Below are positions 14,225-59,666 of a DNA stretch of 64,000 nucleotides, piece by piece (the stretch's first letter is position 1; each line of letters opens with the position of its first letter). The DNA is from a virus (taxonomy: Duplodnaviria; Heunggongvirae; Uroviricota; Caudoviricetes). A program made the position numbers and the translations under genes. The stretch is from positions 21,427-85,426 of the IMG/VR virus record IMGVR_UViG_3300013121_000012; one strand, 5' to 3'. The notes beneath the pieces are model-generated. The model did no database searches, had not been told where the DNA came from, and saw only the letters and a list, made by a program, of their open reading frames with translations.

Positions 14225-15313
14225 ATGGCAAACACAAAGCGAGTTTTTATATCACTTGGAGGTGCGGGAAATAACATCCTTGATTCCATCCAAAAGGAGA
14301 CTAGTCTGATTCATGATCATGATGATGCAGTCTATATCAACTTTGCAAAGACCGATATATCGGATAAGAGCAAAGGACAAAAGTGTGTCTTAGATGCTGG
14401 CGGAACTGGACGAGATCCAAACGTCGGTAAAAAGATGGCACAAGAAAATCTTCCAAAGATTGAAAACTTTCTTAAAGCTGTTCTTAAGAAAACAACTTAC
14501 AATGAAATTATTGTCATCGCTTCTTTAGGTGGTGGTACTGGCGCATCTCTGTCGCCTTATGTCGTTGATCTCTTGAGAAATCAAGACATTCCTATTTCAG
14601 TATTCTCTGTGTTGCCTTCTACTAAAGAGGGCGTCAGTACTATGCCTAACGCGATTAAAGCGTTCATGAATATCTATAACAACTACGTGTTGTACGATAA
14701 ACTCAACTCATTCTTCTTATTTGATAATGAGTTCTATGAAAAGTTCGGGAATTACGATTCATTCGACTTCAGAAATATCAATATAGAGATTGCAAAAACA
14801 ATCGAAGAGATTCTTGATGAATCAAAGGTTGCACGCAACTCACAAGGCTATCAATCGCTTGACGTTAATGAACGTAAGCGTGTGTTCTTTTGGGGTAAAG
14901 GTATCAGCGATTATTGCAAGATTCCTCTTAAGAAAGATACGAAAGCTGAAGATGTACGGTATGCATCATACATCTACTCAGACAAATACAAAACAACAAC
15001 AGCAAAAGCAGTCGCAGCACAGGTTCTCTTTAGAAATGGAGTTACGACAGCCGAGAATAATGGGCTTGTTGAAAAAGCAAATGAAATTCTTGGCATGCTT
15101 AAGAAGAATTTCAAAAATTCAGCATTTTACTTTGGTTACACGTTCGATAACAACGAGCTTGAATCAGACATTGAAATACGTCTGATTGTAAGCGGACTTG
15201 ATGTTCCTAAGAGCTTCACATCCGATGCAAAGAAAGCGAGCAAGAGCGTAGGTAAACTCAAAGAAGAAAATCACGACTTCGCAATTACTGATGACATCGA
15301 TCTCAATTTCTAA
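14225..15313 (+). CDS. tubulin/FtsZ-like GTPase (PhuZ/TubZ-like)
   Basis: N-terminal SLGGAGNNI (FtsZ GGGxGNN-like box) and SLGGGTGASLS (tubulin signature GGGTG[ST]). Confidence 0.6.
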   Translation: MANTKRVFISLGGAGNNILDSIQKETSLIHDHDDAVYINFAKTDISDKSKGQKCVLDAGGTGRDPNVGKKMAQENLPKIENFLKAVLKKTTYNEIIVIASLGGGTGASLSPYVVDLLRNQDIPISVFSVLPSTKEGVSTMPNAIKAFMNIYNNYVLYDKLNSFFLFDNEFYEKFGNYDSFDFRNINIEIAKTIEEILDESKVARNSQGYQSLDVNERKRVFFWGKGISDYCKIPLKKDTKAEDVRYASYIYSDKYKTTTAKAVAAQVLFRNGVTTAENNGLVEKANEILGMLKKNFKNSAFYFGYTFDNNELESDIEIRLIVSGLDVPKSFTSDAKKASKSVGKLKEENHDFAITDDIDLNF

Positions 15314-33167: not shown

Positions 33168-33241
33168 GCTCTAGTAGAGAATGGTATATCGGTTCCGCTT
33201 AAAACGGGATGTCATTGTCGGTTCGAATCCGACCTAGAGTA
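33168..33241 (+). tRNA. tRNA, class-I size, anticodon loop cuUAAaa (Leu-type anticodon UAA)
   Basis: Acceptor gctctag/ctagagt, T-arm gtcgg-TTCGAAT-ccgac, discriminator A. Confidence 0.55.
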
Positions 33242-33244
33242 AAT

Positions 33245-33321
33245 GCCGGTGTGATGCAATTTTGGCAGACATCTCTCATTCAAAACGAGAGTTTTTGGGG
33301 GTTCGAGTCCCTTCACCGGCA
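33245..33321 (+). tRNA. tRNA, class-I size, probable anticodon CAA (loop uuCAAaa closed by an A·C mismatch)
   Basis: Acceptor gccggtg/caccggc, T-loop TTCGAGT, discriminator A. Confidence 0.45.
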
Positions 33322-33337
33322 CAAAGTTTTTTAATAA

Positions 33338-33411
33338 GCCACTGTACACCAACGGTAGAGTGAGCGGTCTTAGAAGCCGTAAAGTGATGGGTTCGAATCC
33401 CTCCAGTGGTA
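33338..33411 (+). tRNA. tRNA, class-I size, anticodon loop cuUAGaa (Leu-type UAG); weak T-stem
   Basis: Acceptor gccactg/cagtggt, T-loop TTCGAAT. Confidence 0.45.
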
Positions 33412-33421
33412 CATAAAAATT

Positions 33422-33495
33422 GGTCTTGTGCGCGAAATGGTATAGCGGCAGTCCTGAGAAGGCTGTGTTTGTGGGTTCGAATCTCACCAAGACCA
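33422..33495 (+). tRNA. tRNA, class-I size, anticodon GAG (loop cuGAGaa; Leu-type)
   Basis: Acceptor ggtcttg/caagacc, D-stem cgcg, anticodon stem cagtc/ggctg, T-arm gtggg-TTCGAAT-ctcac, 5-nt variable loop. Confidence 0.6.
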
Positions 33496-33770
33496 CATGA
33501 ATATTGGTTGACAAGAGATTGTTAGAAACTCTTGGTAGCTCGAAATGATTGTTCTACGTAGTCTATTCGTAGTGATCATAGTAGAGTGCACTAAGACTGG
33601 ATGACGCAAAAATCTTTTGTCCGAAATGTTCATCATTTTCCTGGGTGATTAGAAAACAAAAAGTCTACGCCGAAAGAAAATGAAAATAATTTAATTGATT
33701 TAGAATTTAGAATTGACGCGGTTATGAATGGGTTTCTTGAACGTTTTTCCCCCGCAATAAACGTTCTTAA

Positions 33771-33858
33771 CCTCCTGTGGTGTAATGGCAGCACAACGGA
33801 TTTATATCCCGTCGCACCAGATTAGTGGTTTGTGAAGGTTCGATTCCTTCCAGGAGGA
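33771..33858 (+). tRNA. class-II (long variable arm) tRNA, anticodon unresolved
   Basis: Acceptor cctcctg/caggagg, T-arm gaagg-TTCGATT-ccttc, variable-arm hairpin acca/tggt. The anticodon region has an irregular 9-nt loop. Confidence 0.45.
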
Positions 33859-33939
33859 CATGAGTTTGAAAACGACAATAACAGTCGCTTTGAAGATGAA
33901 ATTAAATTGTAGTAGTCGACATTGTTCAAACTCACAAAT

Positions 33940-34013
33940 GGGTTGCTCGTCTAATGATTAGGACACCGTCCCCTTTACGGACGGAAATCGGGACTCGATC
34001 CCCCGGTGGCCCA
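33940..34013 (+). tRNA. degenerate tRNA-like element (possible pseudo-tRNA; loop ccUUUac)
   Basis: Acceptor gggttgc/gtggccc with three G·U pairs, T-loop CTCGATC, anticodon-like hairpin ccgtcc-cctttac-ggacgg. Confidence 0.25.
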
Positions 34014-34193
34014 CATTTTCTCACCAAAGAGAGTAAGAATCTCATGAGGACGGGTGATTCCCTTGACTGCTTGTAATTAAGCGTCCCATTATCTTCTAAT
34101 CGGAAGAATGCCCGAGCGTATGACGACTTGGCAAGTGAGAAAAAGAAGATAAAGTGAAAAACTAAGCCGCGGCTTGTATGCGCTTTATCATTC

Positions 34194-34264
34194 AGGAACT
34201 TAGTTCACTGGTAGAATTTTTGTACGACGCACAAAAGAAAAGAGTTCGATTCTCTTAGTTCCTA
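34194..34264 (+). tRNA. degenerate tRNA-like element (no U33; possible pseudo-tRNA)
   Basis: Acceptor aggaact/agttcct, T-arm aagag-TTCGATT-ctctt, anticodon hairpin tttgt-acgacgc-acaaa. Confidence 0.3.
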
Positions 34265-34298
34265 CATATTATTCGAACAAAGAACAAATATAATATGT

Positions 34299-34874
34299 AT
34301 GAGTTCTTTAAAGTTCGAACCTATAGATCAATATATTCTCAAATCAAAGGATTTGAGACAATCGCATCTTGACTTAAAATCTGAATGCATTGAAATAGGA
34401 GGCGCTGACTCAAAACATTATAGAGGATTATTGGCTCATGTTCTTAAAACAACAATTCCATCTGGAAAAAAGATTCATTTATGTCATGCATGCAATAATC
34501 CAAAATGTTCCAATGTCAAACACTTATACTGGGGAACTGTAAAAGAGAATGCGCGTGATAAATTTGAATGTGGAAGAATGAGCTCTAAAAAAATAAAAGA
34601 ATCGCTTTTGAGAAAATTTGGATCAGAAGAAAATCTTCGGAAGCATTTCTCTGAAAATGGAAAGAAAAACAAGGGAAGAATCTTAGATCCAGAAAAAACC
34701 AAACACAGAATAGATTTAATACGATATTGTAATGTTGATTTTTCGAAATATGGTTGGGTACAAGAAGTGAGTAAAGTTACTGGAGTACATACGCAACACA
34801 TTAATAAACTGGTAAAAAGACATTTACCAGAAATTTATGCAATTGCCTTCAAGAGGAAAACAAAGGTATCATAG
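34299..34874 (+). CDS. HNH homing endonuclease
   Basis: HLCHACNNPKCSNVKHLYWGT: an HNH motif embedded in the tRNA array. Confidence 0.55.
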   Translation: MSSLKFEPIDQYILKSKDLRQSHLDLKSECIEIGGADSKHYRGLLAHVLKTTIPSGKKIHLCHACNNPKCSNVKHLYWGTVKENARDKFECGRMSSKKIKESLLRKFGSEENLRKHFSENGKKNKGRILDPEKTKHRIDLIRYCNVDFSKYGWVQEVSKVTGVHTQHINKLVKRHLPEIYAIAFKRKTKVS

Positions 34875-34889
34875 AAATATAATACATAT

Positions 34890-34958
34890 CGCGTGAGCGC
34901 TAGGGAGCACGGTTCTCTCATAAGGAACCTTTGGTGGGTTCGAATCCCATGCACGCGA
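34890..34958 (+). tRNA. tRNA-Met/Ile2 (anticodon CAU), short D-arm
   Basis: Anticodon arm ggttct-cuCAUaa-ggaacc; T-arm gtggg-TTCGAAT-cccat. Confidence 0.5.
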
Positions 34959-34962
34959 CCAT

Positions 34963-35033
34963 GGAGCATTAGTGTAGTGGTTATCACGGCTGATTGTCGA
35001 TCAGCAAATAGGGGTTCGATTCCCCTATGCTCC
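34963..35033 (+). tRNA. tRNA-Asp (GUC)
   Basis: Acceptor ggagcat/atgctcc, anticodon arm gctga-uuGUCga-tcagc, T-arm agggg-TTCGATT-cccct. Confidence 0.6.
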
Positions 35034-35239
35034 GCACTACTTTCTCTAATCTACCTTAACTGGCAAACTGAGGAAGTATAATCGACGGTCTATTTCAAGC
35101 TTACGAGTTTGTTAGAAGATTGTACCCTACTTCTTGCAAGTAGGGATTAGGATGAAATACAAAATCGGTGATTAAGTTCCCGAATACAAAGGTTCATTCG
35201 CCCACAATGAAATGTTCGAACGAGTAGTTGTGGTTTTTA

Positions 35240-35317
35240 GGTCACGTATCGGCGGGGTCTTCTAAGCCTTAAGCACGTAAATGGATGAAAATGCGGGTTC
35301 GATTCCTGCCGTGATCG
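35240..35317 (+). tRNA. tRNA-like gene, anticodon arm not resolved
   Basis: Acceptor ggtcacg/cgtgatc, T-arm gcggg-TTCGATT-cctgc. Confidence 0.35.
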
Positions 35318-35340
35318 CAGCATCATAGGATGCATTTATC

Positions 35341-35742
35341 GGGGGCGCATTTGGCTTCGATTGTCCTGTTTGAAAACAAATTCTCAGTCGAGGAGTGTGC
35401 CTCGTAAAAAACAACAAAGCATATAAATGCAGAAAAGAAAGAAGGTAAACTACTCGTTGGAAACTTTGGTGCTACACCAGTTTCTCGTGGCGTAGTTGCC
35501 GCACTCGCAGCTTAATTTTAAGTTGCAAGAAACCCACAAGAGTTCGGTAGTGGTGTTTCTCCTTACAGAACTAAGAGATAAGAAAACGACGAAGGTTCTT
35601 ATTTATGAAAATTTCAGATTCGCCGAAGCCACCGACGCTTGTGTCTTATGTAGGTGAGCAGGAACAGTCAATAAGACTCTAAACTGTAAGATGAATCTGT
35701 TTTACAAGGGGTAAGACAGGGGTTCGATTCCCCTCGCCTCCA
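35341..35742 (+). ncRNA. ssrA: tmRNA (ssrA-like)
   Basis: 5' GGGGGCG pairs with 3' CGCCUCC-A and gives a G3·U70 pair (Ala identity). A T-arm agggg-TTCGATT-cccct lies next to the 3' end. The 5' region GGCTTCGATTGTCC resembles the tmRNA GGATTCGACGGG block. An internal reading frame ends ...GVVAALAA-TAA, a typical degradation tag. Confidence 0.65.
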
Positions 35743-35867
35743 CAAAGAATGTTTTTAACCATAGGCGGATCTCCGTTTATGAATCTCGCTATGACGGATA
35801 GCGATCACATCACTGAGCAGTTACAGTAATGTCGAGAAGTTAGAAGCCAACATCCGTCAGCAATATT

Positions 35868-39822: not shown

Positions 39823-40410
39823 ATGCAAGAAGTATATATCTTACGCGGAGTGCCAGCTTCAGGAAAATCAACCTGGGCAAGAGCATTCGTAAAACAAAAC
39901 CGAGATTTCGTAATCATATCTCGCGATGGAATCCGTGAAATGATCGGAGACTATTCACACTCACCACAAACAGAGAATCTCGTTACGAAGTTATATGATA
40001 AGATGGTTAAAGAACTCCTTTCTATGAAGAAGTCTTTGATCCTCGACAACTGTCATGCGCAACCAAAGTACATTTCAGAAACTCTCAAGTTGATCGAAGG
40101 AACTCGTCTCAACGTTAAAGTCACACTCAAAGAGTTTGAATATGATGTCGAGACATGCGTTGAGCGTGATGCAAAACGTGAACGTACTGTCGGTCGTGAA
40201 GTAATCGAAAAGATGGATCGTGCTATCCGCCAAAATCCATTCAAACACGTCGAAAAGATGGTGAATGAATGGAAGGCGAGTGTCGCCTCCAATCCTGATA
40301 CGAAGAGAGCGTGGAGCAATCCTACACTCAACTTCAAACCAGGATTGCCTTTAGCGGTAATTTTTGATATAGATGGTACATTAGCTCACATTTCTAGAAA
40401 GATCCAATAA
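39823..40410 (+). CDS. polynucleotide 5'-kinase domain of Pnk (T4 PseT-like), ends in the HAD DxDGT motif
   Basis: P-loop GVPASGKST. The C-terminus ...VIFDIDGTLAHI then reaches a stop, so the phosphatase domain is cut off after motif I. Confidence 0.75.
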   Translation: MQEVYILRGVPASGKSTWARAFVKQNRDFVIISRDGIREMIGDYSHSPQTENLVTKLYDKMVKELLSMKKSLILDNCHAQPKYISETLKLIEGTRLNVKVTLKEFEYDVETCVERDAKRERTVGREVIEKMDRAIRQNPFKHVEKMVNEWKASVASNPDTKRAWSNPTLNFKPGLPLAVIFDIDGTLAHISRKIQ

Positions 40411-40429
40411 TATAATAAAATATATTATT

Positions 40430-41092
40430 GTGAAAGTAAAACAGAAATGCTCGATATGCGGCCATGATTATGAGTGCTTTCCTAGTGCAATAAAACTAGG
40501 AAAAAGCACATGTTCGAAAAAGTGCTCATATATACTTCGAGGTAATAAACGAGCGAATGATTTATCTGGAAAAAAATTCAGACATTTGACGGCCATCAAA
40601 AGAGTACAAAATAAAAATGGAAAAGTTTTTTGGTCAGTACTTTGTGATTGTGGAAATACCTCAGAGGTTGATGCGAATGCTTTAACAAGAATCGACGGTA
40701 AAGGCGCTGTATCTTGTGGTTGCATGAATTTTCGCAAGGGAAAAGAAAGTTCAAATTGGAAAAGTCCAAACGAAATATCTCACGCTTATTTTTTCCGAAC
40801 ACAATGTAATGCAAAAAGAAGAAAACTCGAATTTTCTATAACAATAGAAGAAACTTTCGAGATATTCAAAAATCAAAATCGTCTCTGTCGAATCAGTGGA
40901 ATGCCTATTTCTTTAGGCCAAAATATGAGAACGATGACAGCTTCTTTAGATCGAATCGATTCATCTAAAGGATATATCAAAGGCAATGTTCAATGGCTTC
41001 ATAAAGACATCAATCGTCTTAAGAGCAATTGGAATCAAAAAGTTTTTATAGAACTTTGCAAAAAGGTAGCAAATTATGAAAGAAAAATATGA
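40430..41092 (+). CDS. HNH homing endonuclease inserted inside the pnk gene
   Basis: ...ASLDRIDSSKGYIKGNVQWLHKDIN: an HNH_3-type motif, plus a Cys-rich N-terminus. Confidence 0.6.
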   Translation: MKVKQKCSICGHDYECFPSAIKLGKSTCSKKCSYILRGNKRANDLSGKKFRHLTAIKRVQNKNGKVFWSVLCDCGNTSEVDANALTRIDGKGAVSCGCMNFRKGKESSNWKSPNEISHAYFFRTQCNAKRRKLEFSITIEETFEIFKNQNRLCRISGMPISLGQNMRTMTASLDRIDSSKGYIKGNVQWLHKDINRLKSNWNQKVFIELCKKVANYERKI

Positions 41093-41456
41093 CAACTCGA
41101 TGCGCTCTCCATTTGATTGGAAACGAGTCGGAGAAGATGTTGTAGATCCGGTCGTAAGATGGATGCTAGAACGTTTTCAAAATGAAGCAAAAATAATAAT
41201 CGTATCAGGAAGAGATTCTGTTTGTCGAAAAGAAACAGAAGATTGGCTTCTTGAAAATGGAATTCTTTATGATGAGTTATTTATGCGCGGAGAAAATGAT
41301 ATGCGCAAAGATTCAATCATTAAAAGAGAAATCTATGAAAACTATATTAAAGACAAGTATAACGTTATGTTAGTTGTTGACGATAGACAACAGGTCGTTG
41401 ATACTTGGAGGGAAATGGGAATGAAAGTTGCCCAAGTGGAACCTGGAGATTTCTAA
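41076..41456 (+). CDS. polynucleotide 3'-phosphatase domain of Pnk (continuation of 39823..40410)
   Basis: RSPFDWKRVGEDVVDPVV...IIIVSGRD...VVDDRQQVVDTWREMGMKVAQV aligns with T4 Pnk GPYDLEKCDTDVINPMV...VVVSGRE...[21 protein letters not shown]. Confidence 0.75.
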   Translation: MKEKYDNSMRSPFDWKRVGEDVVDPVVRWMLERFQNEAKIIIVSGRDSVCRKETEDWLLENGILYDELFMRGENDMRKDSIIKREIYENYIKDKYNVMLVVDDRQQVVDTWREMGMKVAQVEPGDF

Positions 41457-50199: not shown

Positions 50200-50514
50200 G
50201 AAAATTTTTATGCGAAATTTCGGTTTGTTGTAATATAATAGTAATATCGGAAGCGAGAAAAGAGCTACTTCGAATCAACTACAAACAGCTTTAAAAAGAA
50301 AACAATCTCTTTTCAATTTTTCTCCGAGATAATGCACGTCAGAAGACTGACAGCAAGGTAAGTGAGTTACTTCGGCCCTTAGTGGGCAATTTTTATTTGA
50401 AAAAAAATCCGGTTGGTGCGAATCCAGCAAAGATGGCGAAAGCCAGGGAGCAATCCCGCCTCACTCCAATTTCCTTCAGTCGAGTGCACCGTTCTCATAA
50501 TAAAGAAAAATTAA
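50200..50514 (+). ncRNA. candidate structured ncRNA upstream of the Ro60 gene (possible second Y-like RNA)
   Basis: A noncoding stretch with a -10-like element at ~50228 that ends at the intrinsic terminator at 50515. It contains GNRA-type hairpins (ggcgaaagcc) and a T-arm-like hairpin ttgg-TGCGAAT-ccag. Confidence 0.3.
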
Positions 50515-50540
50515 GGCTCCCAATGAGGAGCCTTTTTTAT
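50515..50540 (+). terminator. intrinsic terminator
   Basis: ggctcc-caatga-ggagcc + TTTTTTA. Confidence 0.65.
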
Positions 50541-50555
50541 TTTAGGAGTGACAAT

Positions 50556-52037
50556 ATGTCAAAGTTTAACAAGAAAACAAAAACAACAATCAAGCCAAAG
50601 GTCGTCGCCAATAAAGGCGGTGGTGTAGGCTTTGCGCAGAGTAAGGAAATGGAACTCGCTTCTATTTTGCTTACATCGTTCCTATCAGGGAACACACATG
50701 AATCAGAGTCAGCGCAAGAACAAAGAATCTCGAATCTCCTTGATTCGTTTGGCGATTCAAACTTCCCAGCGAAAGCTGCGGTGTTTGCTCGTAACGAATT
50801 CGGTATGCGTTCAGTTTCACACTTGATCGCGTCTGAAATCGGTGAAAGAGTTAAGGGAGCAGAATGGACAAAACGATTCTTTGAAAAGGTTGTTCGCCGT
50901 CCAGACGACATTACTGAAATTCTTTCACGCACACTCGCAGAACAAGGAACAGTTCCTAATGCGATGAAGAAAGGACTTGCAGCTTCTTTCTCTAAGTTCG
51001 ATGAGTACCAACTCGCGAAGTATAGAGGAGAAGGAAAAGCAGTTTCTTTGATTGACGCTGTCAATCTTCTTCACCCAACTCCAACAGCGAAAAACAAAAT
51101 CGCTCTCAAGAAATTGATTGCCGATAAGCTTCGTTCAAAGGAAACATGGGAATCAAAGATTTCTGAAACAGGAAAATCTGAGAATGTCGAAGAAGCTAAG
51201 ACGGAAGCTTGGGCAGATTTAATCACTTCCGAAAGAATTGGTTATCTCGCTCTTGTACGAAACCTCCGTAACATTCTCACAAGTGTTACTGATGTAGGCG
51301 TTATTGAAAAGGCTTGCGATATCCTTAAGGATAAGAACAAGTGCAAGAACAGTCTTATCTTCCCTTTCACTTTCTGGTCAGCGTACTTTGAAGTTGAAAG
51401 TATGTCACTCTCAAGTGTTACAAAGAAGCTTGTCATGAGCGCTTTGAACAAAGCACTTGAAATGTCATGTGACAACATCCCAGTATTCGAAGGACGAACA
51501 CTCGTTGCTATCGATTATTCTGGATCAATGGGTGGAACTGACATCTGCAACAAATTGAGCAATCGAGGCGTTGCATCATTGTTCGCTACTGTTCTCGCTA
51601 AGAAGAACCCAACATCTGACATCGTTATCTTCGGAGACGATTGCAAGTATGTTAAGAACTTCAACGCAGACGACAGCATCTTCACAAACCTAAAAAACTT
51701 GATGAAGAATAACCAATATGCGGGAGACAATACTGTTCATGTTGGTCACAGTACAAATTTCTATTCAATCTTCAATGCCGCAAAGCATAAGTATGATCGA
51801 ATCGTAATTTTCTCTGATATGCAAGCGAACTCTGGATATGGTTGGTCTGGACTAGAAGCATACAACAAGAAGTTTGACGTAAAGCCACTCATTATTGCTG
51901 TTGATCTTCAAGGCAACGGAACAACTCAGTTCAAGAAAGACTTCGTTCAAGTAGTCGGATGGTCTGAAAAGATTTTCGATCTTATGAAGAACGATGCTCA
52001 GACACTTGTCAACAGAATCAAAGCCATCGAGCTTTAA
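50556..52037 (+). CDS. rsr: Ro60 (TROVE domain + C-terminal vWA/MIDAS) ortholog, Rsr-like
   Basis: RBS ttaggagtgacaATG. The C-terminal vWA has LVAIDYSGSMGG (MIDAS DxSxS). An N-terminal ~350-aa helical region is typical of TROVE proteins. The length (493 aa) matches bacterial Rsr. Start trimmed from the track ORF. Confidence 0.65.
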   Translation: MSKFNKKTKTTIKPKVVANKGGGVGFAQSKEMELASILLTSFLSGNTHESESAQEQRISNLLDSFGDSNFPAKAAVFARNEFGMRSVSHLIASEIGERVKGAEWTKRFFEKVVRRPDDITEILSRTLAEQGTVPNAMKKGLAASFSKFDEYQLAKYRGEGKAVSLIDAVNLLHPTPTAKNKIALKKLIADKLRSKETWESKISETGKSENVEEAKTEAWADLITSERIGYLALVRNLRNILTSVTDVGVIEKACDILKDKNKCKNSLIFPFTFWSAYFEVESMSLSSVTKKLVMSALNKALEMSCDNIPVFEGRTLVAIDYSGSMGGTDICNKLSNRGVASLFATVLAKKNPTSDIVIFGDDCKYVKNFNADDSIFTNLKNLMKNNQYAGDNTVHVGHSTNFYSIFNAAKHKYDRIVIFSDMQANSGYGWSGLEAYNKKFDVKPLIIAVDLQGNGTTQFKKDFVQVVGWSEKIFDLMKNDAQTLVNRIKAIEL

Positions 52038-52064
52038 AAAAGACTGAAAAGTCCGCTATTAAAA

Positions 52065-52090
52065 GCGTCCCTCCGTGGACGCTTTTTTTA
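52065..52090 (+). terminator. intrinsic terminator
   Basis: gcgtcc-ctccgt-ggacgc + TTTTTTTA. Confidence 0.65.
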
Positions 52091-52093
52091 TGC

Positions 52094-52122
52094 TCATGCG
52101 CCATTTACAAGTTTTCACTTAA
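52094..52122 (+). promoter_or_regulatory. sigma70-like promoter CGCCATTTACAA-N17-TATAAT driving the downstream ncRNA
   Basis: Near-identical to the promoter at 28210. Confidence 0.55.
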
Positions 52123-52129
52123 GTGTTAT

Positions 52130-52370
52130 AATAAAGCACTTCCGGAAAAGAGGGCGCCCCTCTGGAACGGAAGGAGAAACTGCGGGGTAGCCCAATATGG
52201 TAGAGGCATCGGCGTGAAAGCCGAAACAGTGTTGGTTCGATTCCAATCCTCATGGCTTTCGAAGGTTTTGCGGGAACAACGCCCGCAGTTTCCTAACAAA
52301 AAACTGGACGGATGCGAAGTGAATTTCATGCATGGTTTACAGATTAAACCAGCTGACTTTTTACCAATTT
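52130..52370 (+). ncRNA. Y RNA-like ncRNA (YrlA-like), core helix 52176..52292
   Basis: gaaactgcgggg...cccgcagtttc forms a ≥11-bp terminal helix that encloses a D-arm-like gtagcccaatatggtagagg and a T-arm gttgg-TTCGATT-ccaat. It is followed by a hairpin ggttta-caga-ttaaacc and a T-rich tract. Confidence 0.5.
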
Positions 52371-53224: not shown

Positions 53225-53445
53225 TAGAAGTAGTTTACATCGGCGATAAATTCTATGGAGATTCTGGGACGATGATGTCTTCAATCTACAAAAAAGAAGG
53301 AAAAAAATACACTCGATTTGATTGGGGGTTTTTGCAAATCGCACTAGCAAATGGCGAAAATGTGAAAATCCGTCAAGCTAATCGTAAAGAAATGCTTCAT
53401 TTCAAAACGATGCTCGCTGATCATATACTGAAAAAACAAAAATAG
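53221..53445 (+). CDS. hypothetical protein
   Basis: ORF. Confidence 0.3.
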   Translation: MIEVVYIGDKFYGDSGTMMSSIYKKEGKKYTRFDWGFLQIALANGENVKIRQANRKEMLHFKTMLADHILKKQK

Positions 53446-53514
53446 GTTCCATATATAGTGGCAATTGTTTCCGCTGTCTACGGAAACACCGGGGTTCGAT
53501 TCCCCGTGGAACCG
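53445..53514 (+). tRNA. tRNA-Asp (GUC), short
   Basis: Acceptor ggttcca/tggaacc, anticodon arm ttccg-cuGUCua-cggaa, T-arm cgggg-TTCGATT-ccccg. Confidence 0.5.
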
Positions 53515-53536
53515 CACTAAAAATCTGGAGGGATAT

Positions 53537-54211
53537 ATGAAAACATTCACTTTCGAAAGTCAAATGAAAGTTATTGGCGAAATGAATCCCTTTACGGATG
53601 AGCAGATAAAAAATGAGCCGATGCTTTTTAATTGCGATTTGAAAGCAGCATACGATCTCGGTGGACCAATCACTCAGGAATTCCTCGATAAAGTCATGGA
53701 CTTTGTTGATGATGAAAAAGTCGTGATTGATACTCGAGTACACATGCTCATGAAGGGTTGGTTCCCGTGCATTCCTGGATTTCATCATGACGATGTTCCA
53801 AGAAGTGGTCGCGATGGACAACCTAACTACTTCAATCCAGAATACAAAAGCAAACACGTAATGGCACTCGTAAATGCCGATGTCTGTCCAACAGAATTTG
53901 CAATAGGTACCACGATTCTTCCCGATATTGAGGAAGGAATCTACTATAAAGAGTGGCATCCAATGATTGAAAAACGACTTGAAGAAAAAAGCAAAATCAA
54001 TCATTTACTCTTAATGGAAAGAGTGCGTGCCAAGGGGAATCCAATCATTTATTTTGATTGGCAAACATTCCATCAAGGAACTAGAGCCGTAAAAAATGGC
54101 TGGCGATGGTTTGCTAGACTGAGCTATAATACAGATCGTGTGAAAAATTGCACGAACGAATTACGAAGACAAGTTCAAGTGTATCTTGAGCACCCAATGG
54201 AAGGATGGTAA
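53537..54211 (+). CDS. hypothetical protein
   Basis: RBS ggaggg; start trimmed. Confidence 0.35.
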   Translation: MKTFTFESQMKVIGEMNPFTDEQIKNEPMLFNCDLKAAYDLGGPITQEFLDKVMDFVDDEKVVIDTRVHMLMKGWFPCIPGFHHDDVPRSGRDGQPNYFNPEYKSKHVMALVNADVCPTEFAIGTTILPDIEEGIYYKEWHPMIEKRLEEKSKINHLLLMERVRAKGNPIIYFDWQTFHQGTRAVKNGWRWFARLSYNTDRVKNCTNELRRQVQVYLEHPMEGW

Positions 54212-54493
54212 ATGATAGCATTCGCGATAAAACCTGAAAATCAAGAACAAGTAAATGATTTCGTATACTCTATGAAAAGAGAGTTCGAAAACAAAGAAAG
54301 AGATATGGTAGGCGTAATCGCTATACCCGGTTTTAGTCGATGGTATATTGAAATCGATATCGATAAAAACGAAAGGAATTTCGAGAGAATAGCGAATGTC
54401 ATGAATTCGTTTAATGGATTCGGTAATTCTCTGCGAGGTTGGAAAGTTTACGAAGATAACGACAAAATTCTTCCGTATTGTGAGGCGCAATGA
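54212..54493 (+). CDS. hypothetical protein
   Basis: ORF. Confidence 0.3.
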   Translation: MIAFAIKPENQEQVNDFVYSMKREFENKERDMVGVIAIPGFSRWYIEIDIDKNERNFERIANVMNSFNGFGNSLRGWKVYEDNDKILPYCEAQ

Positions 54494-55602
54494 AAATAGT
54501 ACTTAAAAAGAAATCATCGACGGGAGCACCATTAATCTGGACTGCAACTGTCAAAGGAAATACCGTGACTTACACTCACGGGCAAGAAGGTGGAAAACTG
54601 CAGACGAAAGTCGATGTCCACAAAACTGGGAAGAACATCGGGAAGAAGAATGAGAAAACTCCAGAAGATGTTGCACTCTTTGAAGCTGAAACTACAGCTC
54701 TGAAGAAAATCGACAACGGGTACAAACTCGTTGAAGGTAAGATCAATGAACATACAACTAAAGCTGAAAAAGCAATGCACGTTCCTCAACCAATGCTTGC
54801 TCACAAGTATGTTGATCACAAACACAAACTCGGTAATAAGTTTTATGTACAAAAGAAGTACGATGGAATCCGAGGAATCTTCGACACGAATACAGGAAAA
54901 GGTTACTCACGAAATGGTAAACAAATCCTCGGTGTTCCACATATCGAAGAATCAATACGCTCTCTTAAAATAAAGGATGCATGGATCGACGGTGAATTGT
55001 ATTCACACGATCTGTCATTCGAACAAATTATTTCAATCACCAAGAAGACTAAAACTCTTGCTGATGAAAAGGACCGCAAGAAAATCATACTTGTGGTATT
55101 CGATGCAGTTGTTCCTGGCAACACAATGCAACGTCATGAGTGGGTCAAGAAACACATCGGCAAGACGAAATATCTCGAAATTTCTGAGATGCATGAGTGC
55201 ACTCACGACAAGCTCGAGAAGATGCATGATAAATTCGTCCAAGAAGGTTACGAAGGAATCATGGTCAGGAATGTTGATGGAAAGTATGAGCACAAACGCT
55301 CATACGGGCTCCTCAAATTCAAGAAGTTCTTTGATAAAGAATTCAAGATCTTTGGCTTTCATAAGCAAGATCATCAAGATACTCTTGGAGCGATGGAGTT
55401 TGTCGATCACAAAGGCGACCACTTTAGCGCTGGCTTGAAGATGAGTCACGAAATGCGTCAAGAAATCTGGGACAATAAAGAAGCTTACCGCGGCAAAATG
55501 GCGACTGTCCGCTATCAAGAGATTACTCAGCCGAATAAAGCAGGAATTCCTGTTGGTGTCCCACGATTCGGTGTAGTTGTTGCCATAAGGGATTACGAAT
55601 GA
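54490..55602 (+). CDS. ATP-dependent DNA ligase
   Basis: QKKYDGIRG (motif I KxDGxR), EGIMVRN (motif IV) and LLKFKKF (motif V). Confidence 0.7.
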   Translation: MKIVLKKKSSTGAPLIWTATVKGNTVTYTHGQEGGKLQTKVDVHKTGKNIGKKNEKTPEDVALFEAETTALKKIDNGYKLVEGKINEHTTKAEKAMHVPQPMLAHKYVDHKHKLGNKFYVQKKYDGIRGIFDTNTGKGYSRNGKQILGVPHIEESIRSLKIKDAWIDGELYSHDLSFEQIISITKKTKTLADEKDRKKIILVVFDAVVPGNTMQRHEWVKKHIGKTKYLEISEMHECTHDKLEKMHDKFVQEGYEGIMVRNVDGKYEHKRSYGLLKFKKFFDKEFKIFGFHKQDHQDTLGAMEFVDHKGDHFSAGLKMSHEMRQEIWDNKEAYRGKMATVRYQEITQPNKAGIPVGVPRFGVVVAIRDYE

Positions 55603-55808
55603 TAAAAGAAATAATCGCTGCAATCTTACTGATCGCAGCAATAATCGGAGCGTATGTTTTCGTAGATGTATCTCAAAGAAAATCTGCGGAAAGGTATGAA
55701 GCAATTTATGGCGAATAAAATCGTCATAACGATAATCACTGCTCTCATCGTAGTATACTTCACTATGTATGGTGGCTGCTACATAGCAATGTTCAAAGGA
55801 ATGAGATT

Positions 55809-56144
55809 ATGAAAAATGCAGGATTACGAGAAGATTCGATTATTCGAGTTCTGAACGCAGAAGGAGAATTCATACGCCGAGGAACATACAATTGGGCTGA
55901 TAAAAACCCAACTGTAGAAAGCAACCATAATCTTCGTGGATTGAAACCAAATATCACTCAGAGATTCGGAGACTTTACCGATTACGAAGGCAAAATTACT
56001 CTTCGAGACAAAGATCATGCAAAAAGATTCGAGGAGTTTCTCAATGAAACAATTATTGAGTACGAACTCAAAGAAATCAATCGCATGACAATGAGGCAAT
56101 ATTTAGAACGGATGGGAAAACTTACTCGTCCTGGAGATGAATAA
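55809..56144 (+). CDS. hypothetical protein
   Basis: ORF. Confidence 0.3.
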   Translation: MKNAGLREDSIIRVLNAEGEFIRRGTYNWADKNPTVESNHNLRGLKPNITQRFGDFTDYEGKITLRDKDHAKRFEEFLNETIIEYELKEINRMTMRQYLERMGKLTRPGDE

Positions 56145-56155
56145 AGAGGGGAAAC

Positions 56156-56497
56156 ATGGAACAAACATTCGCAAATCAAGGCGTGACATTACTCGCGCAC
56201 AAACAAACGGATAAGTTCGTACGATTCGTCGTAGCTGATACTGAAGCTGGTCGGACAAAAACAGTGCGTGCAGTACGCAACGCTGGATACGATGTCGACA
56301 CTCTCAAGAAAGACGTACAAGTCTTTACGAAGTGGGACAAGTTTGAGAATGTTCGTGTGTTTACATTCTCCGCCGAGAAACTTTTCTGTGATACACACAA
56401 AGCTGCATCAAAGCAAGCAGGAATCTCAGGATCTGTTCCAATGCATTTGTCACTCCAAGAACTTGCGAAGATGCAAGCGTCTGGTGTACGGGTATGA
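56156..56497 (+). CDS. hypothetical protein
   Basis: RBS gagggg. Confidence 0.3.
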   Translation: MEQTFANQGVTLLAHKQTDKFVRFVVADTEAGRTKTVRAVRNAGYDVDTLKKDVQVFTKWDKFENVRVFTFSAEKLFCDTHKAASKQAGISGSVPMHLSLQELAKMQASGVRV

Positions 56498-57117
56498 CAA
56501 AAGCACAAAGAGAATTCGATCTCATTTGGCAAGTCCGATACTTGCTACTCGGTAAATTCGCTGAGCTATTTCGGCTCCGCGATGAAGCACTAGAGATTAG
56601 CCCGATGATTGATTATTCGGTCATCGCCGACAAACTTAACGAGTACATGAAAAATCGTGTACAAGAGCTCAAAGACATCGTCAAAAAACACGAGCTCATG
56701 AAGTACTATGATATTTCTCCGTACGTGATCCCGACATTCAACTATCTCAATCGAAAGATCGAGAGAAAGGAATTCAACTTCATAAATGATCCGAAGATCA
56801 AAGGTCGTTTGATTCATGTTGGTGGAAGTCACGCTTGTCTCTATGACGAATATTACTGCAAAGACTGTGAGACGTTCGTCGTAACACGAGATGATACTGA
56901 CGATTGCATGATTCTTCCAGTGTGTCCAACATGTAACAATATCCAAAACTACATTTGGAAAACAGTACGAGACGACGGAACAATGGCATATATCCACTAC
57001 CGAAACAGAACTCTTAAGTGGTATCGTATGCACAAGCGTGATTTGAAAATCCAAAAGTTCTTGGGTCGCTTTACGCCGAAGAAGATAACTGAGCGAATCA
57101 GTTATTGGGGCGCATAA
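56494..57117 (+). CDS. hypothetical protein with CxxC...CxxC zinc motif
   Basis: CKDCETF...CPTCNN. Confidence 0.3.
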   Translation: MTKAQREFDLIWQVRYLLLGKFAELFRLRDEALEISPMIDYSVIADKLNEYMKNRVQELKDIVKKHELMKYYDISPYVIPTFNYLNRKIERKEFNFINDPKIKGRLIHVGGSHACLYDEYYCKDCETFVVTRDDTDDCMILPVCPTCNNIQNYIWKTVRDDGTMAYIHYRNRTLKWYRMHKRDLKIQKFLGRFTPKKITERISYWGA

Positions 57118-57214
57118 ATAAAACCGTCTTGAGTTGATTCTACATACAATAGAATATAGCAACTCCAAATGTCCTTATAAATAAAGGAAAATTAAAAACA
57201 ATTACGGAGACAAA

Positions 57215-57409
57215 ATGGCACAACCACAAACAATCACATTGAAGCAAGGTCAGATCAACAAGATCGTTAAACTCGCATCAGGGACATCGAAGAAAGCAGG
57301 TCTTTCAGCTCGAACAATCTCTGAAGAAACAGGTTTCCCTCGCCGTCAAGTAATGGCAGTTCTCGAAGACAACAACCTCGCTTCGTACTCAGCCGGTTCT
57401 TACAACTAA
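57215..57409 (+). CDS. hypothetical small protein
   Basis: RBS acggaga. Confidence 0.3.
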   Translation: MAQPQTITLKQGQINKIVKLASGTSKKAGLSARTISEETGFPRRQVMAVLEDNNLASYSAGSYN

Positions 57410-57494
57410 GTAAGACACCCACTCTCCCCGTGTAATCAGGAGAATGGACCGGCGAAGATAATCGCGGATAGCCGGTTCCAATGCAATACTACTA

Positions 57495-57620
57495 TGAAAA
57501 TAAAAAATGCAATTCTTAAAGCGACTCAGATAACAATCGCAATTGCTTTCTTTATATATGTTATCGTCGTCGTTATGACACTCGGTTTTATGGCCGCAAG
57601 TCTCGGAGGACTCAAGTGAG
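57495..57620 (+). CDS. small membrane peptide (41 aa)
   Basis: ORF below the track threshold; a single TM segment. Confidence 0.25.
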
Positions 57621-57870
57621 TAAAGATCTTGTTGAATACAACGTCCTCGCAAAAGGATTCATCGACAAACTCGAAGAGCTTCAAAAAGAAAAAGATCTTG
57701 AAACTCTTAAGAAAAAGATTATCGCAATACTTCAAAGCGAAGAATACTCTGGTGCGAATGGCACTCGAAAGAAGTGGATAGAAAAGGTTGGTGCAATGAG
57801 CACAATGCGAGATGTCCAGTTCTTTCTTTACAATTTCATTCTCGCAGCAAATGGAATGAAAGCGACATGA
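57616..57870 (+). CDS. hypothetical protein
   Basis: ORF. Confidence 0.3.
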   Translation: MSKDLVEYNVLAKGFIDKLEELQKEKDLETLKKKIIAILQSEEYSGANGTRKKWIEKVGAMSTMRDVQFFLYNFILAANGMKAT

Positions 57871-58418
57871 ATCATTTTCAGCTCAGATTAAAATTCGGAG
57901 AAGAAGCAGAAAATCTGTTTGAAGAAGTACTGAAACTTCAGATTCTTCCGAATAAAGGATATGAGCGCTTTACATTTCAAAGTCTCCGTGATAAACACGG
58001 ATGGAATTCAGTAGAATGTCAGAAATTCACAAAGGTGAATGGAGACTTTAAAGTCATCGGTCAAGATGACGAAGAGTTGTTCTTTGACGTCAAAGGTACA
58101 GAGAAACTTTCTCTTGATTCTCTTGAATTCGCAAGAGAAGATCTTATATTCGCGATGAACTTTCATTTGAGAAGAGAACACTGTTTCTTCTTCAGAAAAA
58201 GTGATGTCGCTAACAAAATCAAGAATGTCTGTAAGAAAGTCAAACTTCCAAGTGGAGACGATGGATTTTCAATATGGGCGGCACAAGATTTTCCTCAAGA
58301 AAGGCTATACACTGAACTGCCAAGAAAGATTCTATCGCTGAAGAAAAAACTTCGCAAGAAAGCTGCTGAAGAATTTTCAGATAAATTTTTCGGGAATGTT
58401 CTAACTCCAGAAATATAA
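57867..58418 (+). CDS. hypothetical protein
   Basis: Start trimmed. Confidence 0.3.
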   Translation: MNHFQLRLKFGEEAENLFEEVLKLQILPNKGYERFTFQSLRDKHGWNSVECQKFTKVNGDFKVIGQDDEELFFDVKGTEKLSLDSLEFAREDLIFAMNFHLRREHCFFFRKSDVANKIKNVCKKVKLPSGDDGFSIWAAQDFPQERLYTELPRKILSLKKKLRKKAAEEFSDKFFGNVLTPEI

Positions 58419-58743
58419 TAGCAACATGGAGCAGATGATTAATACTTTCAGTTTTAATTATTGTGCAGCTCGTCATTCGCAGACGGGTAAACCTGAGATT
58501 CGCTAATCTCAAAGGGTTTCCATACTTCATCCCAAAGCACTCTTTAAAAAATATGGACCAGAGCCCCTAGAGAGGGAAGCTCTCGAGTCAGAGAACTCGT
58601 TCGGTATCGTTTCAAGTCATACGGGAAACCTTATTACTTGGGGCGAAGGCGCGAAAGAGAAGGATCTTTGAGGAGATCAGAAGTAAAACGAGGCGTCGCA
58701 ACACGCCTATCTGAGTCGAAACTTTGACAACGTTACTTTACTT

Positions 58744-59647: not shown

Positions 59648-59666
59648 CAGTATAATAAGGAGAAAA

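What the first reader, a model, noticed from the sequence alone, without database searches (positions are those of the whole stretch)
35341..35742. Phage-encoded tmRNA with G3·U70 acceptor and an ...VVAALAA proteolysis tag
The 5' GGGGGCG pairs with the 3' CGCCUCC(A) next to a T-arm, which reproduces the tRNA-like domain of tmRNA and includes the alanine identity pair G3·U70. The 5' region resembles the conserved tmRNA block. An internal frame ends GKLLVGNFGATPVSRGVVAALAA-TAA, and the resume codon within it is uncertain. A tmRNA inside a tRNA array would add trans-translation rescue to this phage's RNA repair theme.
Basis: seen in the sequence. Interest (0 to 1): 0.7.

Follow-up and report, generated by a model that had tools for sequence, protein, structure and literature searches.

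The report
Jumbo-phage tmRNA with a long tag
This is a genuine, complete transfer-messenger RNA gene carried by a large uncultivated T4-like phage inside its tRNA cluster; phage tmRNAs are already known, and its one unusual feature is a 28-residue degradation tag that is conserved at the peptide level across related phages.

Summary
ARAGORN calls a tmRNA at 35341-35743(+). Rfam RF00023 matches end to end at 106.2 bits (gathering score 47, E 1.7e-40).

The gene lies in a tRNA array of a contractile-tailed jumbo phage, next to Rnl1, PNK, two more RNA ligases, Thg1-like and Ro60 genes. Six distinct related metagenomic variants, 73-90% identical, carry the same tmRNA at the same syntenic position.

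On a 7-sequence alignment my full model pairs 97.5% of cells, against 42-47% when partners are slid. The model has an acceptor with invariant G3·U70, T-arm, H2, H5 and PK1-PK4. 28 of 91 pairs change on both sides.

The resume codon is GCA at 35429. The tag is AEKKEGKLLVGNFGATPVSRGVVAALAA, with the stop UAA in the H5 loop. The frame keeps 28-29 codons, its only indel is one codon, and dN/dS is 0.1-0.5. It therefore looks translated, with a conserved core AE·K·GKLL·G·FG.

CCA is not encoded, and no SmpB is in the window.

Phage tmRNAs are documented, so this is a new member of a known kind. The most likely function is ribosome rescue and tagging during infection.

The parts
35341..35742 (+). Whole tmRNA gene, from G1 to discriminator A. 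The mature RNA would carry a post-transcriptionally added CCA; the genome continues CAA.
   Evidence: ARAGORN; Rfam RF00023 at 106.2 bits, E 1.7e-40, full-length match; conserved in six distinct related variants at 91.5-100.8 bits, or 40.3 bits for the intron-split L049 copy.
35341..35347 (+). Acceptor stem 5' strand GGGGGCG, with G3 of the G3·U70 alanine identity pair.
   Evidence: Pairs with 35735-35741. 3 of 7 pairs show compensatory changes (GGGATAG/CTATTCC, GGGGTCG/CGACTCC). G3·U is invariant in 7 of 7 sequences.
35348..35360 (+). D-loop analogue (CAUUUGGCUUCGA) of the tRNA-like domain.
   Evidence: GGCUUCGA is invariant in all relatives and aligns to the Rfam consensus uGGaUUCGA with high posterior probability.
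35361..35385 (+). Helix H2, 5' strand. Its partner is 35690-35714.
   Evidence: 21 pairs, 95-98% of cells paired, 4 pairs with changes on both sides (helices 2 and 3).
35389..35416 (+). Pseudoknot PK1. Stem a is CGAGG/CCUCG (35389-93 with 35400-04). Stem b is UGUG/CA-CA (35396-99 with 35412-16).
   Evidence: Stem a has one compensatory pair (C-G to U-A in L046 and L049). Stem b is complementary but invariant, so covariation cannot test it.
35429..35515 (+). Tag reading frame: resume codon GCA (35429-31), 28 codons encoding AEKKEGKLLVGNFGATPVSRGVVAALAA, stop UAA (35513-15).
   Evidence: ARAGORN coding part 89-175. The frame is kept in all relatives at 28-29 codons, and the only indel is one codon. 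Variable sites by codon position are 9, 13 and 18. dN/dS is 0.08-0.47.
35505..35528 (+). Helix H5, enclosing the last tag codons, with the UAA stop at its apex.
   Evidence: 9 pairs, 100% paired but invariant. The L046 and L049 length changes fall in the apical loop.
35529..35572 (+). Pseudoknot PK2. Stem a is 35529-37 with 35550-59. Stem b is 35541-45 with 35568-72.
   Evidence: Stem a is 100% paired with 3 compensatory pairs. Stem b has 1 compensatory pair (U-A to C-G in L049) but a U·U mismatch in L039, L042 and L043.
35576..35625 (+). Pseudoknot PK3. Stem a is 35576-84 with 35596-604. Stem b is 35587-93 with 35619-25.
   Evidence: Stem a has 6 of 9 pairs changed on both sides. Stem b has A-U to G-C in L051 and L046. 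L049 has a different sequence here that still forms a 7-bp stem a and a 7-bp stem b (CUGUGCA/UGCACAG), read by eye from the unaligned L049 sequence printed.
35628..35675 (+). Pseudoknot PK4. Stem a is 35628-33 with 35653-59. Stem b is 35645-49 with 35671-75.
   Evidence: Stem a is 100% paired with 4 of 6 pairs compensatory. Stem b is 100% paired with 2 of 5 compensatory (helices 12 and 13).
35690..35714 (+). Helix H2, 3' strand.
   Evidence: See the H2 5' strand entry.
35718..35734 (+). T-arm: stem AGGGG/CCCCU, loop UUCGAUU.
   Evidence: 5 pairs, 100% paired, 3 compensatory (helix 14).
35735..35742 (+). Acceptor 3' strand CGCCUCC plus discriminator A73. It is followed by CAA in the genome, so no CCA is encoded.
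   Evidence: Relatives read ACAA, ACAG or AAAA after the acceptor, and none encodes CCA.
35320..35333 (+). Small hairpin (GCAUC-AUAG-GAUGC) in the spacer about 7 nt upstream of the tmRNA 5' end. It may be a processing or spacer element.
   Evidence: A hairpin is present at the same place in all 7 relatives with different sequences: GACACC...GGUGUC in L046 and AUGUC-GAAA-GACAU in L049.

Best explanation
This is a functional, standard one-piece tmRNA (ssrA) gene that belongs to an uncultivated T4-superfamily jumbo phage.

Shown here:
- A complete tRNA-like domain with the AlaRS identity elements G3·U70 and A73.
- Helix H2.
- Four pseudoknots.
- A resume codon GCA in the canonical upstream context.
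- A 28-codon tag frame ending in ...AALAA, with its UAA stop in the H5 loop.
- All of this under structural and coding constraint across a clade of related phages.

Inferred from established tmRNA biology:
1. The RNA is transcribed with the surrounding same-strand tRNA cluster.
2. RNase P cuts it out at the 5' end. It is trimmed at the 3' end, and a CCA-adding enzyme adds CCA, because the gene encodes A-CAA.
3. Host AlaRS charges it with alanine, and SmpB binds it. The SmpB would be host-encoded, or phage-encoded elsewhere in the ~207 kb genome.
4. It enters the empty A site of ribosomes stalled on broken mRNAs.
5. Translation resumes at GCA and appends A-AEKKEGKLLVGNFGATPVSRGVVAALAA.
6. The ribosome is released at UAA, and the tagged protein goes to host proteases through its ALAA C-terminus.

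Why the phage keeps it (inference): infection by such phages, and host RNA-targeting defences such as anticodon nucleases and mRNA interferases, generate many non-stop or stalled complexes. The neighbouring Rnl1, PNK, RNA ligase, Thg1-like and Ro60 genes are the kind of toolkit that counters that damage. A phage copy of tmRNA would keep ribosomes recycling for phage protein synthesis. The conserved internal motif AE·K·GKLL·G·FG suggests the long tag carries extra recognition information, for an adaptor or a protease, beyond the C-terminal degron.
For: Detection: ARAGORN and Rfam at 106.2 bits against a gathering score of 47, full length.

Conservation: the tmRNA is in the same slot (tRNA array - tmRNA - T4_Y16D - DHH - Rnl1 - PNK) in L039, L040 and L042-L046. 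L048, L049 and L051 hold further copies in a shorter context.

Structure: 97.5% of 636 cells are paired, against 42-47% with slid partners. 28 of 91 pairs change on both sides, against 5 or fewer when slid. 0 of 500 shuffles reach the observed covariation score. G3·U70 is invariant while the neighbouring acceptor pairs covary.

Translation of the tag: the frame and length are kept, the indel is a whole codon, third positions vary most (9/13/18), and dN/dS is 0.08-0.47. Synonymous changes occur inside the conserved motif (CTA CTC to CTT TTG for Leu-Leu; GGT, GGC and GGA for Gly).

Phage context: tail sheath and tail tube, Rnl1-like and PNK, two RNA ligases and a Thg1-like enzyme, Ro60.

Precedent: tmRNA and SmpB in huge phages (PMC7162821) and a tmRNA in phage G (PMC12484599).
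Against: - No SmpB was found in the 64 kb window. No SmpB family is listed among the called genes of the related contigs.
- CCA is not encoded.
- PK1 stem b and H5 never vary, so comparison cannot test them.
- PK2 stem b has a U·U mismatch in three relatives.
- I derived the structure model from these same sequences, which inflates the paired percentage somewhat.
- The sequence pairs used for dN/dS are few and phylogenetically dependent. Individual p-values are only 0.007-0.27.
- There is no expression, charging or tagging data.
- The host is unknown.
Confidence: 0.86

Rival explanations
1. Specialised tag. This refines the best explanation rather than excluding it. The phage tmRNA does rescue ribosomes, but it exists because of its own tag. 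The conserved 28-29-residue peptide would redirect tagged proteins to a different protease or adaptor than the host tag does. It might also mark them for a phage-specific fate. The precedent is the long Mycoplasma tag, which switched specificity to Lon (Gur and Sauer 2008, recalled from memory).
For: The tag is 28-29 aa, against a commonest length of 10 aa (PMC11915505). The internal motif AE·K·GKLL·G·FG is invariant across variants whose tmRNAs are only 73-90% identical, and it contains synonymous changes. The motif was not found in IMG/VR or in 185,579 species-representative genomes. Other viral-contig tmRNAs also have long tags of 18-33 aa.
Against: The C-terminus is still a canonical ALAA, FAA or IAA degron. 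There are only four distinct tag types. Part of the conservation near the resume codon could be an RNA-level constraint on frame setting. No candidate adaptor or protease was identified.
Confidence: 0.3
2. Decoy or inhibitor. The RNA competes with host tmRNA for SmpB, AlaRS or ribosomes in order to shut down host trans-translation, rather than to tag proteins. This was reported for the CDS-less tmRNA-like RNA of mycobacteriophage DS6A.
For: PMC11915505 cites the DS6A mini-tmRNA as inhibiting endogenous tmRNA in E. coli. No SmpB is in the window, so the RNA must use the host's SmpB or a distant phage copy.
Against: Unlike the DS6A RNA, this one is full-length. It has a resume codon, four pseudoknots with covariation and a tag frame under purifying selection with whole-codon indels. 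A pure decoy would not need any of these.
Confidence: 0.05
3. Non-functional passenger or artefact: a recently captured host ssrA, a bacterial contig misjoined to phage DNA, or the attP/attL remnant of an element that integrates into ssrA.
For: Many IMG/VR hits that share the 3' 24-mer may be host tmRNA genes or fragments at prophage borders (not tested); several loci hold the 3' end without any complete tmRNA call. Temperate elements often target ssrA (PMC11915505).
Against: The gene is complete, not a 3' fragment. Phage genes and phage tRNAs flank it on the same strand. Independent assemblies from JGI, NCBI, ENA and Logan keep it in the same slot. Its divergence is compensatory rather than decay. 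No matching bacterial tmRNA was found among the GTDB species representatives. No integrase appeared among the 60 larger ORFs scanned against Pfam or PHROGs.
Confidence: 0.03

Closest known systems
Standard one-piece bacterial tmRNA (SsrA; Rfam RF00023)
   Same: Full architecture: 7-bp acceptor with G3·U70 and A73, D-loop analogue GGCUUCGA, T-arm with a UUCGAUU loop, long H2, PK1 upstream of the resume codon, a GCA resume codon, the stop codon in the H5 loop, PK2-PK4, and a tag ending ALAA. The covariance-model match is end to end.
   Different: It is encoded by a phage, not a bacterium. The tag is 28 aa, against a commonest length of 10 aa (PMC11915505), and has a clade-specific conserved core. 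PK1 stem b is short (4 bp with a bulge). No CCA is encoded. No SmpB gene is nearby.
tmRNAs of huge and jumbo phages (Al-Shayeb et al. 2020, PMC7162821; phage G, PMC12484599; mycobacteriophage tmRNAs listed in the tmRNA database, PMC11915505)
   Same: A tmRNA carried by a large lytic-type phage genome alongside many tRNAs and other translation- or RNA-related genes, and detectable with ARAGORN.
   Different: No nucleotide similarity to any of 50,697 deposited phage genomes. Only the last ~30 nt are shared with IMG/VR tmRNAs. The tag is different and longer (phage G: AKLNITNNELQVA). This clade places the tmRNA directly beside the Rnl1/PNK RNA-repair block.
Mycobacteriophage DS6A tmRNA-like RNA (CDS-less form; cited in PMC11915505)
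   Same: A phage-encoded RNA with a tmRNA tRNA-like domain.
   Different: The DS6A RNA lacks a tag reading frame and acts as an inhibitor of host tmRNA. The RNA here has a conserved, apparently translated frame and all four pseudoknots.
Intron-form tmRNA genes (group I intron at T-loop position 7; PMC11915505)
   Same: The relative L049 carries a 220-nt insert exactly at T-loop position 7, with U at -1, a terminal G, and a P1 helix (exon UUCGAU with intron GUCGAA) that has the U·G pair at the splice site.
   Different: The window's own gene is uninterrupted. The L049 insert scores only 20.9 bits against Rfam Intron_gpI (gathering score 50). It lies in a phage-like contig rather than a bacterial genome.

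Membership tests
tmRNA (standard one-piece, RF00023) | Covariance-model score at or above the curated gathering threshold over the full model | tested here: met
   106.2 bits against 47, model positions 1-374 of 374, E 1.7e-40. ARAGORN agrees independently.
tmRNA (standard one-piece, RF00023) | tRNA-like domain: 7-bp acceptor stem closed by the 5' and 3' ends, T-arm with a tRNA-type T-loop, and a D-loop analogue | tested here: met
   Positions 1-7 pair with 395-401. The T-arm is 378-382 with 390-394, loop UUCGAUU. GGCUUCGA is invariant. The acceptor and T-arm are 100% paired, each with 3 compensatory pairs.
tmRNA (standard one-piece, RF00023) | Alanine identity: G3·U70 wobble pair and discriminator A73 | tested here: met
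   G3·U is invariant in 7 of 7 sequences while pairs 4, 5 and 6 covary. The discriminator A is invariant.
tmRNA (standard one-piece, RF00023) | Internal tag reading frame with no start codon, resuming just 3' of PK1 and ending at an in-frame stop in helix 5, with a hydrophobic, Ala-rich C-terminus | tested here: met
   GCA at position 89, 28 codons, UAA at 173-175 at the H5 apex, C-terminus ALAA. The frame is conserved with dN/dS below 0.5.
tmRNA (standard one-piece, RF00023) | Pseudoknots PK1-PK4 connected by helix H2 | tested here: met
   All eight stems can be drawn. Seven of the eight show at least one pair changed on both sides. PK1 stem b is complementary but invariant. PK2 stem b has a U·U mismatch in 3 of 7 sequences.
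tmRNA (standard one-piece, RF00023) | 3'-terminal CCA on the mature RNA | tested here: inconclusive
   The genome encodes A-CAA, and relatives encode ACAA, ACAG or AAAA, so CCA would have to be added enzymatically. The phage's tRNA genes also lack an encoded CCA. The mature end was not observable.
tmRNA (standard one-piece, RF00023) | Dedicated protein partner SmpB available | tested here: inconclusive
   None in the window or within the fetched flanks (up to 10 kb) of the tmRNA in relatives. The rest of the ~207 kb contig and the host could not be examined.
tmRNA (standard one-piece, RF00023) | Alanylation and trans-translation activity | not testable with these tools
   This needs biochemistry or proteomics.
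Phage-encoded tmRNA (as opposed to host ssrA at a prophage border) | A complete gene embedded among phage genes on both sides, and conserved in related phage genomes | tested here: met
   Tail sheath and tube, T4_Y16D, Rnl1, PNK, HNH genes and 22 tRNAs are on the same strand. Synteny is kept in the related contigs. No integrase appeared among the 60 larger ORFs scanned against Pfam or PHROGs.

The most novel reading that the evidence does not exclude
The long, peptide-conserved tag (core AE·K·GKLL·G·FG, C-terminal ALAA or FAA) is a phage-specific degron or adaptor-binding module. The phage would replace the host's tag with its own. Products of ribosomes stalled by RNA-cleaving defences or by phage-induced mRNA decay would then go to a protease or fate that the phage controls. 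This would couple trans-translation functionally to the adjacent RNA-repair cassette (Rnl1, PNK, ligases, Thg1-like, Ro60 with a Y-like RNA).
Probability: 0.2. Interest if true: 0.6.

Novelty: new member of a known kind. Interest (0 to 1): 0.33.

Why it matters
This adds a well-supported case of a virus carrying its own ribosome-rescue RNA. Few metagenomic phage tmRNAs come with covariation evidence for every domain and evidence that the tag is translated. Two points could justify experiments:

- The tag is nearly three times the usual length, and its peptide sequence is conserved. That hints at recognition information beyond the C-terminal degron.
- The gene sits in a dense block of RNA-damage-response genes. 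This is a natural place to ask whether phage trans-translation counters RNA-targeting host defences.

Neither point changes current understanding. Routine ARAGORN annotation would have found the gene.

Tried and rejected
- blastn of the tmRNA, and megablast of 12 kb around it, against 50,697 deposited phages. The tmRNA gave no match, and the 12 kb gave only one unrelated 56-nt match.
- IMG/VR scan with the 3' 24-mer. It returned 38 loci, but all share only the universal T-arm and acceptor (about 30 nt). None is a relative.
- IMG/VR scans with the 5' 23-mer and with an invariant 19-mer: nothing.
- IMG/VR search with the DHH neighbour protein: nothing.
- Exact-protein look-up of the window's DHH protein and of its 100%-identical cluster representative P0001. 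Neither is on record, so the rest of the ~207 kb source contig could not be read.
- Scans of the GTDB species representatives with the PK1 block and with the tag-motif pattern, and an IMG/VR scan with the tag motif: nothing. So there is no host clue and no bacterial source.
- SmpB search: nothing (plus the Pfam scans).
- tblastn of the tubulin-like protein against phages: no match.
- I considered and rejected a prophage att remnant, a misassembly and a CDS-less decoy; the reasons are under the rival explanations.
- I considered whether tag conservation is purely an RNA-level constraint. I rejected this for the motif region because synonymous substitutions occur within it. It remains possible for the first few codons and for the H5 part.

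Full report

Yes. The sequence at 35341-35745 begins GGGGGCG and ends CGCCUCC-A-CAA. The two ends form a 7-bp acceptor stem whose third pair is G·U. A canonical T-arm (AGGGG-UUCGAUU-CCCCU) abuts the 3' strand. ARAGORN reports a tmRNA at 35341-35743 with tag peptide AEKKEGKLLVGNFGATPVSRGVVAALAA*. Rfam's tmRNA model RF00023 matches 35341-35745 across all 374 model positions at 106.2 bits, against a gathering score of 47, E 1.7e-40. It is GCA at 35429-35431, which both tools place there, and the sequence UAAAU-GCA aligns to the consensus UAAuU-GCa.

**2. What genome is this?**

- The window is about 38-40% G+C, and nearly all ORFs of 100 aa or more that do not overlap a longer + strand ORF lie on the + strand.
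- It encodes a 1182-aa tail sheath, about 25% identical to T4-type and Atu_ph07-type sheaths, followed by a tail tube.
- It also encodes SbcC/SbcD-like proteins, a tubulin/FtsZ-family protein, ThyA and DHFR.
- ARAGORN tRNA genes in two arrays interspersed with HNH genes, and Rfam adds one more (63048-63119).
- Downstream of the tmRNA lie a T4_Y16D-family ORF, a DHH phosphoesterase, a T4 Rnl1-like ligase, and a polynucleotide kinase/phosphatase split by an HNH ORF. Further on are two more RNA-ligase-family proteins, a Thg1-like enzyme, an RNase-H-like protein, a Ro60/TROVE protein and a DNA ligase.
- So 'phage-encoded', 'inside a tRNA array' and 'RNA repair theme' are all correct as descriptions.
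- No deposited phage is similar at the nucleotide level. The source contig is about 207 kb but could not be retrieved.

**3. Relatives and conservation**

The neighbouring DHH protein has homologues of 71-79% identity. They lie on metagenomic contigs from JGI, NCBI, ENA and Logan assemblies that are syntenic with the window: Band_7 ... tRNAs ... T4_Y16D - DHH - Rnl1 - PNK. Every one that covers the interval carries a tmRNA in the same slot, with Rfam scores of 91.5-100.8 bits. A metagenome scan with the invariant PK1 block added L048 and L049. This gives seven distinct sequences, 73-90% identical to the window.

**4. Structure**

I wrote a full secondary-structure model in window numbering: acceptor, T-arm, H2, both stems of PK1, H5, and both stems of PK2, PK3 and PK4. 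I then counted the pairs on alignment A2.

- 97.5% of 636 cells form standard pairs, against 42-47% when every 3' partner is slid by 1-3 columns.
- 28 of 91 pairs show changes on both sides, against 1-5 when slid.
- None of 500 column shuffles reached the observed covariation score.
- The acceptor alone shows GGGGGCG/CGCCUCC, GGGAUAG/CUAUUCC and GGGGUCG/CGACUCC, while G3·U70 never changes.
- PK3 and PK4 covary heavily. In L049, PK3 has a quite different sequence that still forms both stems.

Limits:
- PK1 stem b (4 bp with a bulge) and H5 are invariant, so they are only consistent with the model.
- PK2 stem b has a U·U mismatch in L039, L042 and L043.
- The model was drawn from these same sequences, which favours it somewhat.

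**5. The tag**

The frame is open in all relatives for 28 or 29 codons, and the only length change is one inserted codon (CGC). The four tag types are:
- AEKKEGKLL[VA]GNFGATPVSRGVVAALAA
- AEKKEGKLL[AS]GFFGVRAPESRGVVAAFAA
- AETKLGKLLTGNFGVKPAFATEGFALAA
- AETKLGKLLTGNFGAKPAFATEGFAIAA

Variable sites rise from codon position 1 to 3 (9, 13, 18 of 29). Nei-Gojobori dN/dS is 0.08-0.47 in all informative pairs. Synonymous changes fall inside invariant residues (Leu-Leu as CTA CTC or CTT TTG; Gly as GGT, GGC or GGA). This is the signature of a translated sequence under purifying selection, with a conserved core AE·K·GKLL·G·FG ... A-x-AA.

The sample is small and the pairs are not independent, so I treat this as good but not conclusive evidence. 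The commonest tmRNA tag length is 10 aa (PMC11915505), so 28 aa is long. It is not unique, though: unrelated tmRNAs on IMG/VR contigs have tags of 18-33 aa. The motif pattern was not found in IMG/VR or in 185,579 species-representative genomes.

**6. What is missing**

- CCA is not encoded. The genome reads A-CAA, and relatives read ACAA, ACAG or AAAA.
- The phage's own tRNA genes likewise carry N73-CA rather than CCA, so a CCA-adding enzyme is needed.
- No SmpB was found in the window (Pfam scans; tblastn) or near the tmRNA in relatives.
- The remaining ~140 kb of the genome and the host are unknown.

**7. Mechanism**

Shown here:
- All sequence and structure determinants of a standard tmRNA.
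- Their evolutionary maintenance.
- A tag frame that behaves as coding.

Inferred from established tmRNA biology:
- Processing by RNase P and 3' trimming with CCA addition.
- Charging by AlaRS through G3·U70 and A73, and SmpB binding.
- Entry into stalled ribosomes, and resumption at GCA.
- Addition of Ala plus the 28 encoded residues, and termination at UAA in the H5 loop.
- Proteolysis through the ALAA end.

Inferred from context: the phage keeps its own copy to sustain ribosome recycling when mRNAs and tRNAs are being cut. That could happen through its own takeover or through host RNA-targeting defences. T4 Rnl1 and PNK are the classical counter to the PrrC anticodon nuclease (established knowledge, not tested here).

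Rivals:
- Specialised tag function. It is compatible with the main reading, and I put it at about 0.3.
- A decoy like the CDS-less DS6A RNA (PMC11915505). The constrained frame and pseudoknots argue against it.
- A passenger, artefact or att remnant. Completeness, synteny and compensatory evolution argue against it.

**8. Comparison with the known, and verdict**

The RNA passes every membership test for standard tmRNA that can be run in silico. Phage-encoded tmRNAs are documented: huge phages with tmRNA and SmpB (PMC7162821), phage G (PMC12484599), and mycobacteriophage entries in the tmRNA database (PMC11915505). This is therefore a new member of a known kind, with one mildly unusual trait, the long peptide-conserved tag, and an interesting neighbourhood.

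- Confidence that it is a real, functional phage tmRNA: about 0.85-0.9.
- Interest: about 0.33.

**9. Things seen along the way**

These are listed separately in the report:
- An intron-form copy of this tmRNA in relative L049.
- A D-arm-less tRNA-Arg(UCU)-like element just upstream.
- The N73-CA ends of the tRNA genes.
- The HNH-split PNK.
- A Y-RNA-like element after Ro60.

Noticed in passing
L049:4108-4740 (insert at 4504-4723): The tmRNA of this relative is split in the T-loop by a 220-nt insert at loop position 7. The 5' exon ends ...GGGGUUCGAU, the insert ends ...UUUG, and the 3' exon starts UCCCCUCGACUCC. Splicing in silico restores the T-loop UUCGAUU. Exon UUCGAU can pair with intron nt 7-12 (GUCGAA), giving a P1 helix with U·G at the splice site. 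Rfam Intron_gpI scores only 20.9 bits (E 0.006, gathering score 50). ARAGORN misses this gene, and Rfam scores it below the gathering threshold. It is a likely group I intron-form tmRNA in a phage-like contig (context in PMC11915505).
   Followed up: partly
window 35240-35317 (+): A tRNA-like element lies 23 nt upstream of the tmRNA. It has acceptor GGUCACG/CGUGAUC, anticodon loop CUUCUAA (UCU, Arg), a normal T-arm, a D-arm reduced to about 4 nt, and a 19-nt extra segment. Rfam tRNA scores it 27.2 bits (gathering score 29), and ARAGORN does not call it. The same odd form is in L046 and L049. L039, L042-45 and L051 have a canonical tRNA-Arg(tct) at this position.
   Followed up: partly
window 33168-35035 and 53445-63972 (tRNA gene 3' ends): About 20 of the 22 tRNA genes called by ARAGORN, and the tmRNA, have the discriminator followed by C-A and then A/T-rich sequence (N73-CA, not CCA). 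This is far more regular than chance (1/16 per gene). It suggests a shared 3'-processing or partial-CCA signal.
   Followed up: no
window 39823-41456 (+): The polynucleotide kinase/phosphatase is split into a kinase part (39823-40410, AAA_33) and a phosphatase part (41076-41456, phrog_505). An HNH endonuclease ORF (40430-41092) lies between them. Relatives L039, L042 and L043 have an intact 310-314-aa PNK, and L046 is split in the same way.
   Followed up: partly
window 52064-52300 (+): Downstream of the Ro60/TROVE gene (50382-52037) there is a terminator-like hairpin with a U-run (about 52064-52090). Next comes a sigma-70-like TTTACA...TATAAT. Then a long stem (GAAACUGCGGG...CCCGCAGUUUC) encloses a tRNA-like module (52181-52255). 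Rfam tRNA scores the module 27.5 bits, and ARAGORN calls it 'tRNA-???'. The fold z-score is -3.1. The layout resembles bacterial YrlA-type Y RNAs, which partner Ro60.
   Followed up: partly
L046:8168-8204 and L049:3788-3824: The Rfam abiF RNA motif (RF03085) hits at or above the gathering score (47.7 and 37.5 bits) immediately after tRNA-Asp in two relatives. The homologous stretch of the window (35036-35100) gave no abiF hit at E of 1 or better.
   Followed up: partly
L042:2197-3010, L046:8867-9644, L049:4741-5512: In three relatives, a 244-255-aa ORF with no Pfam family is inserted between the tmRNA and T4_Y16D. It starts MW·C·ECG. A T-loop-like repeat (GGUUCGAUUC) precedes it, just after the tmRNA 3' end. 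The window, L039 and L051 lack this ORF. It may be a mobile, homing-type insertion next to the tmRNA.
   Followed up: no
window 14225-15313 (+): A tubulin/FtsZ-family protein (Pfam Tubulin, E 1.2e-18) has no tblastn match in 50,697 deposited phage genomes. It would be a very divergent phage tubulin.
   Followed up: no
window 33771-33859, 59864-59956, 62006-62096 (+): tRNA-Ile(tat) at 89 nt and tRNA-Asn(gtt) at 93 nt are much longer than ordinary class I tRNAs. The Rfam tRNA match for Ile spans 88 nt for a 71-position model. These genes may have insertions or introns. tRNA-Tyr is 91 nt.
   Followed up: no
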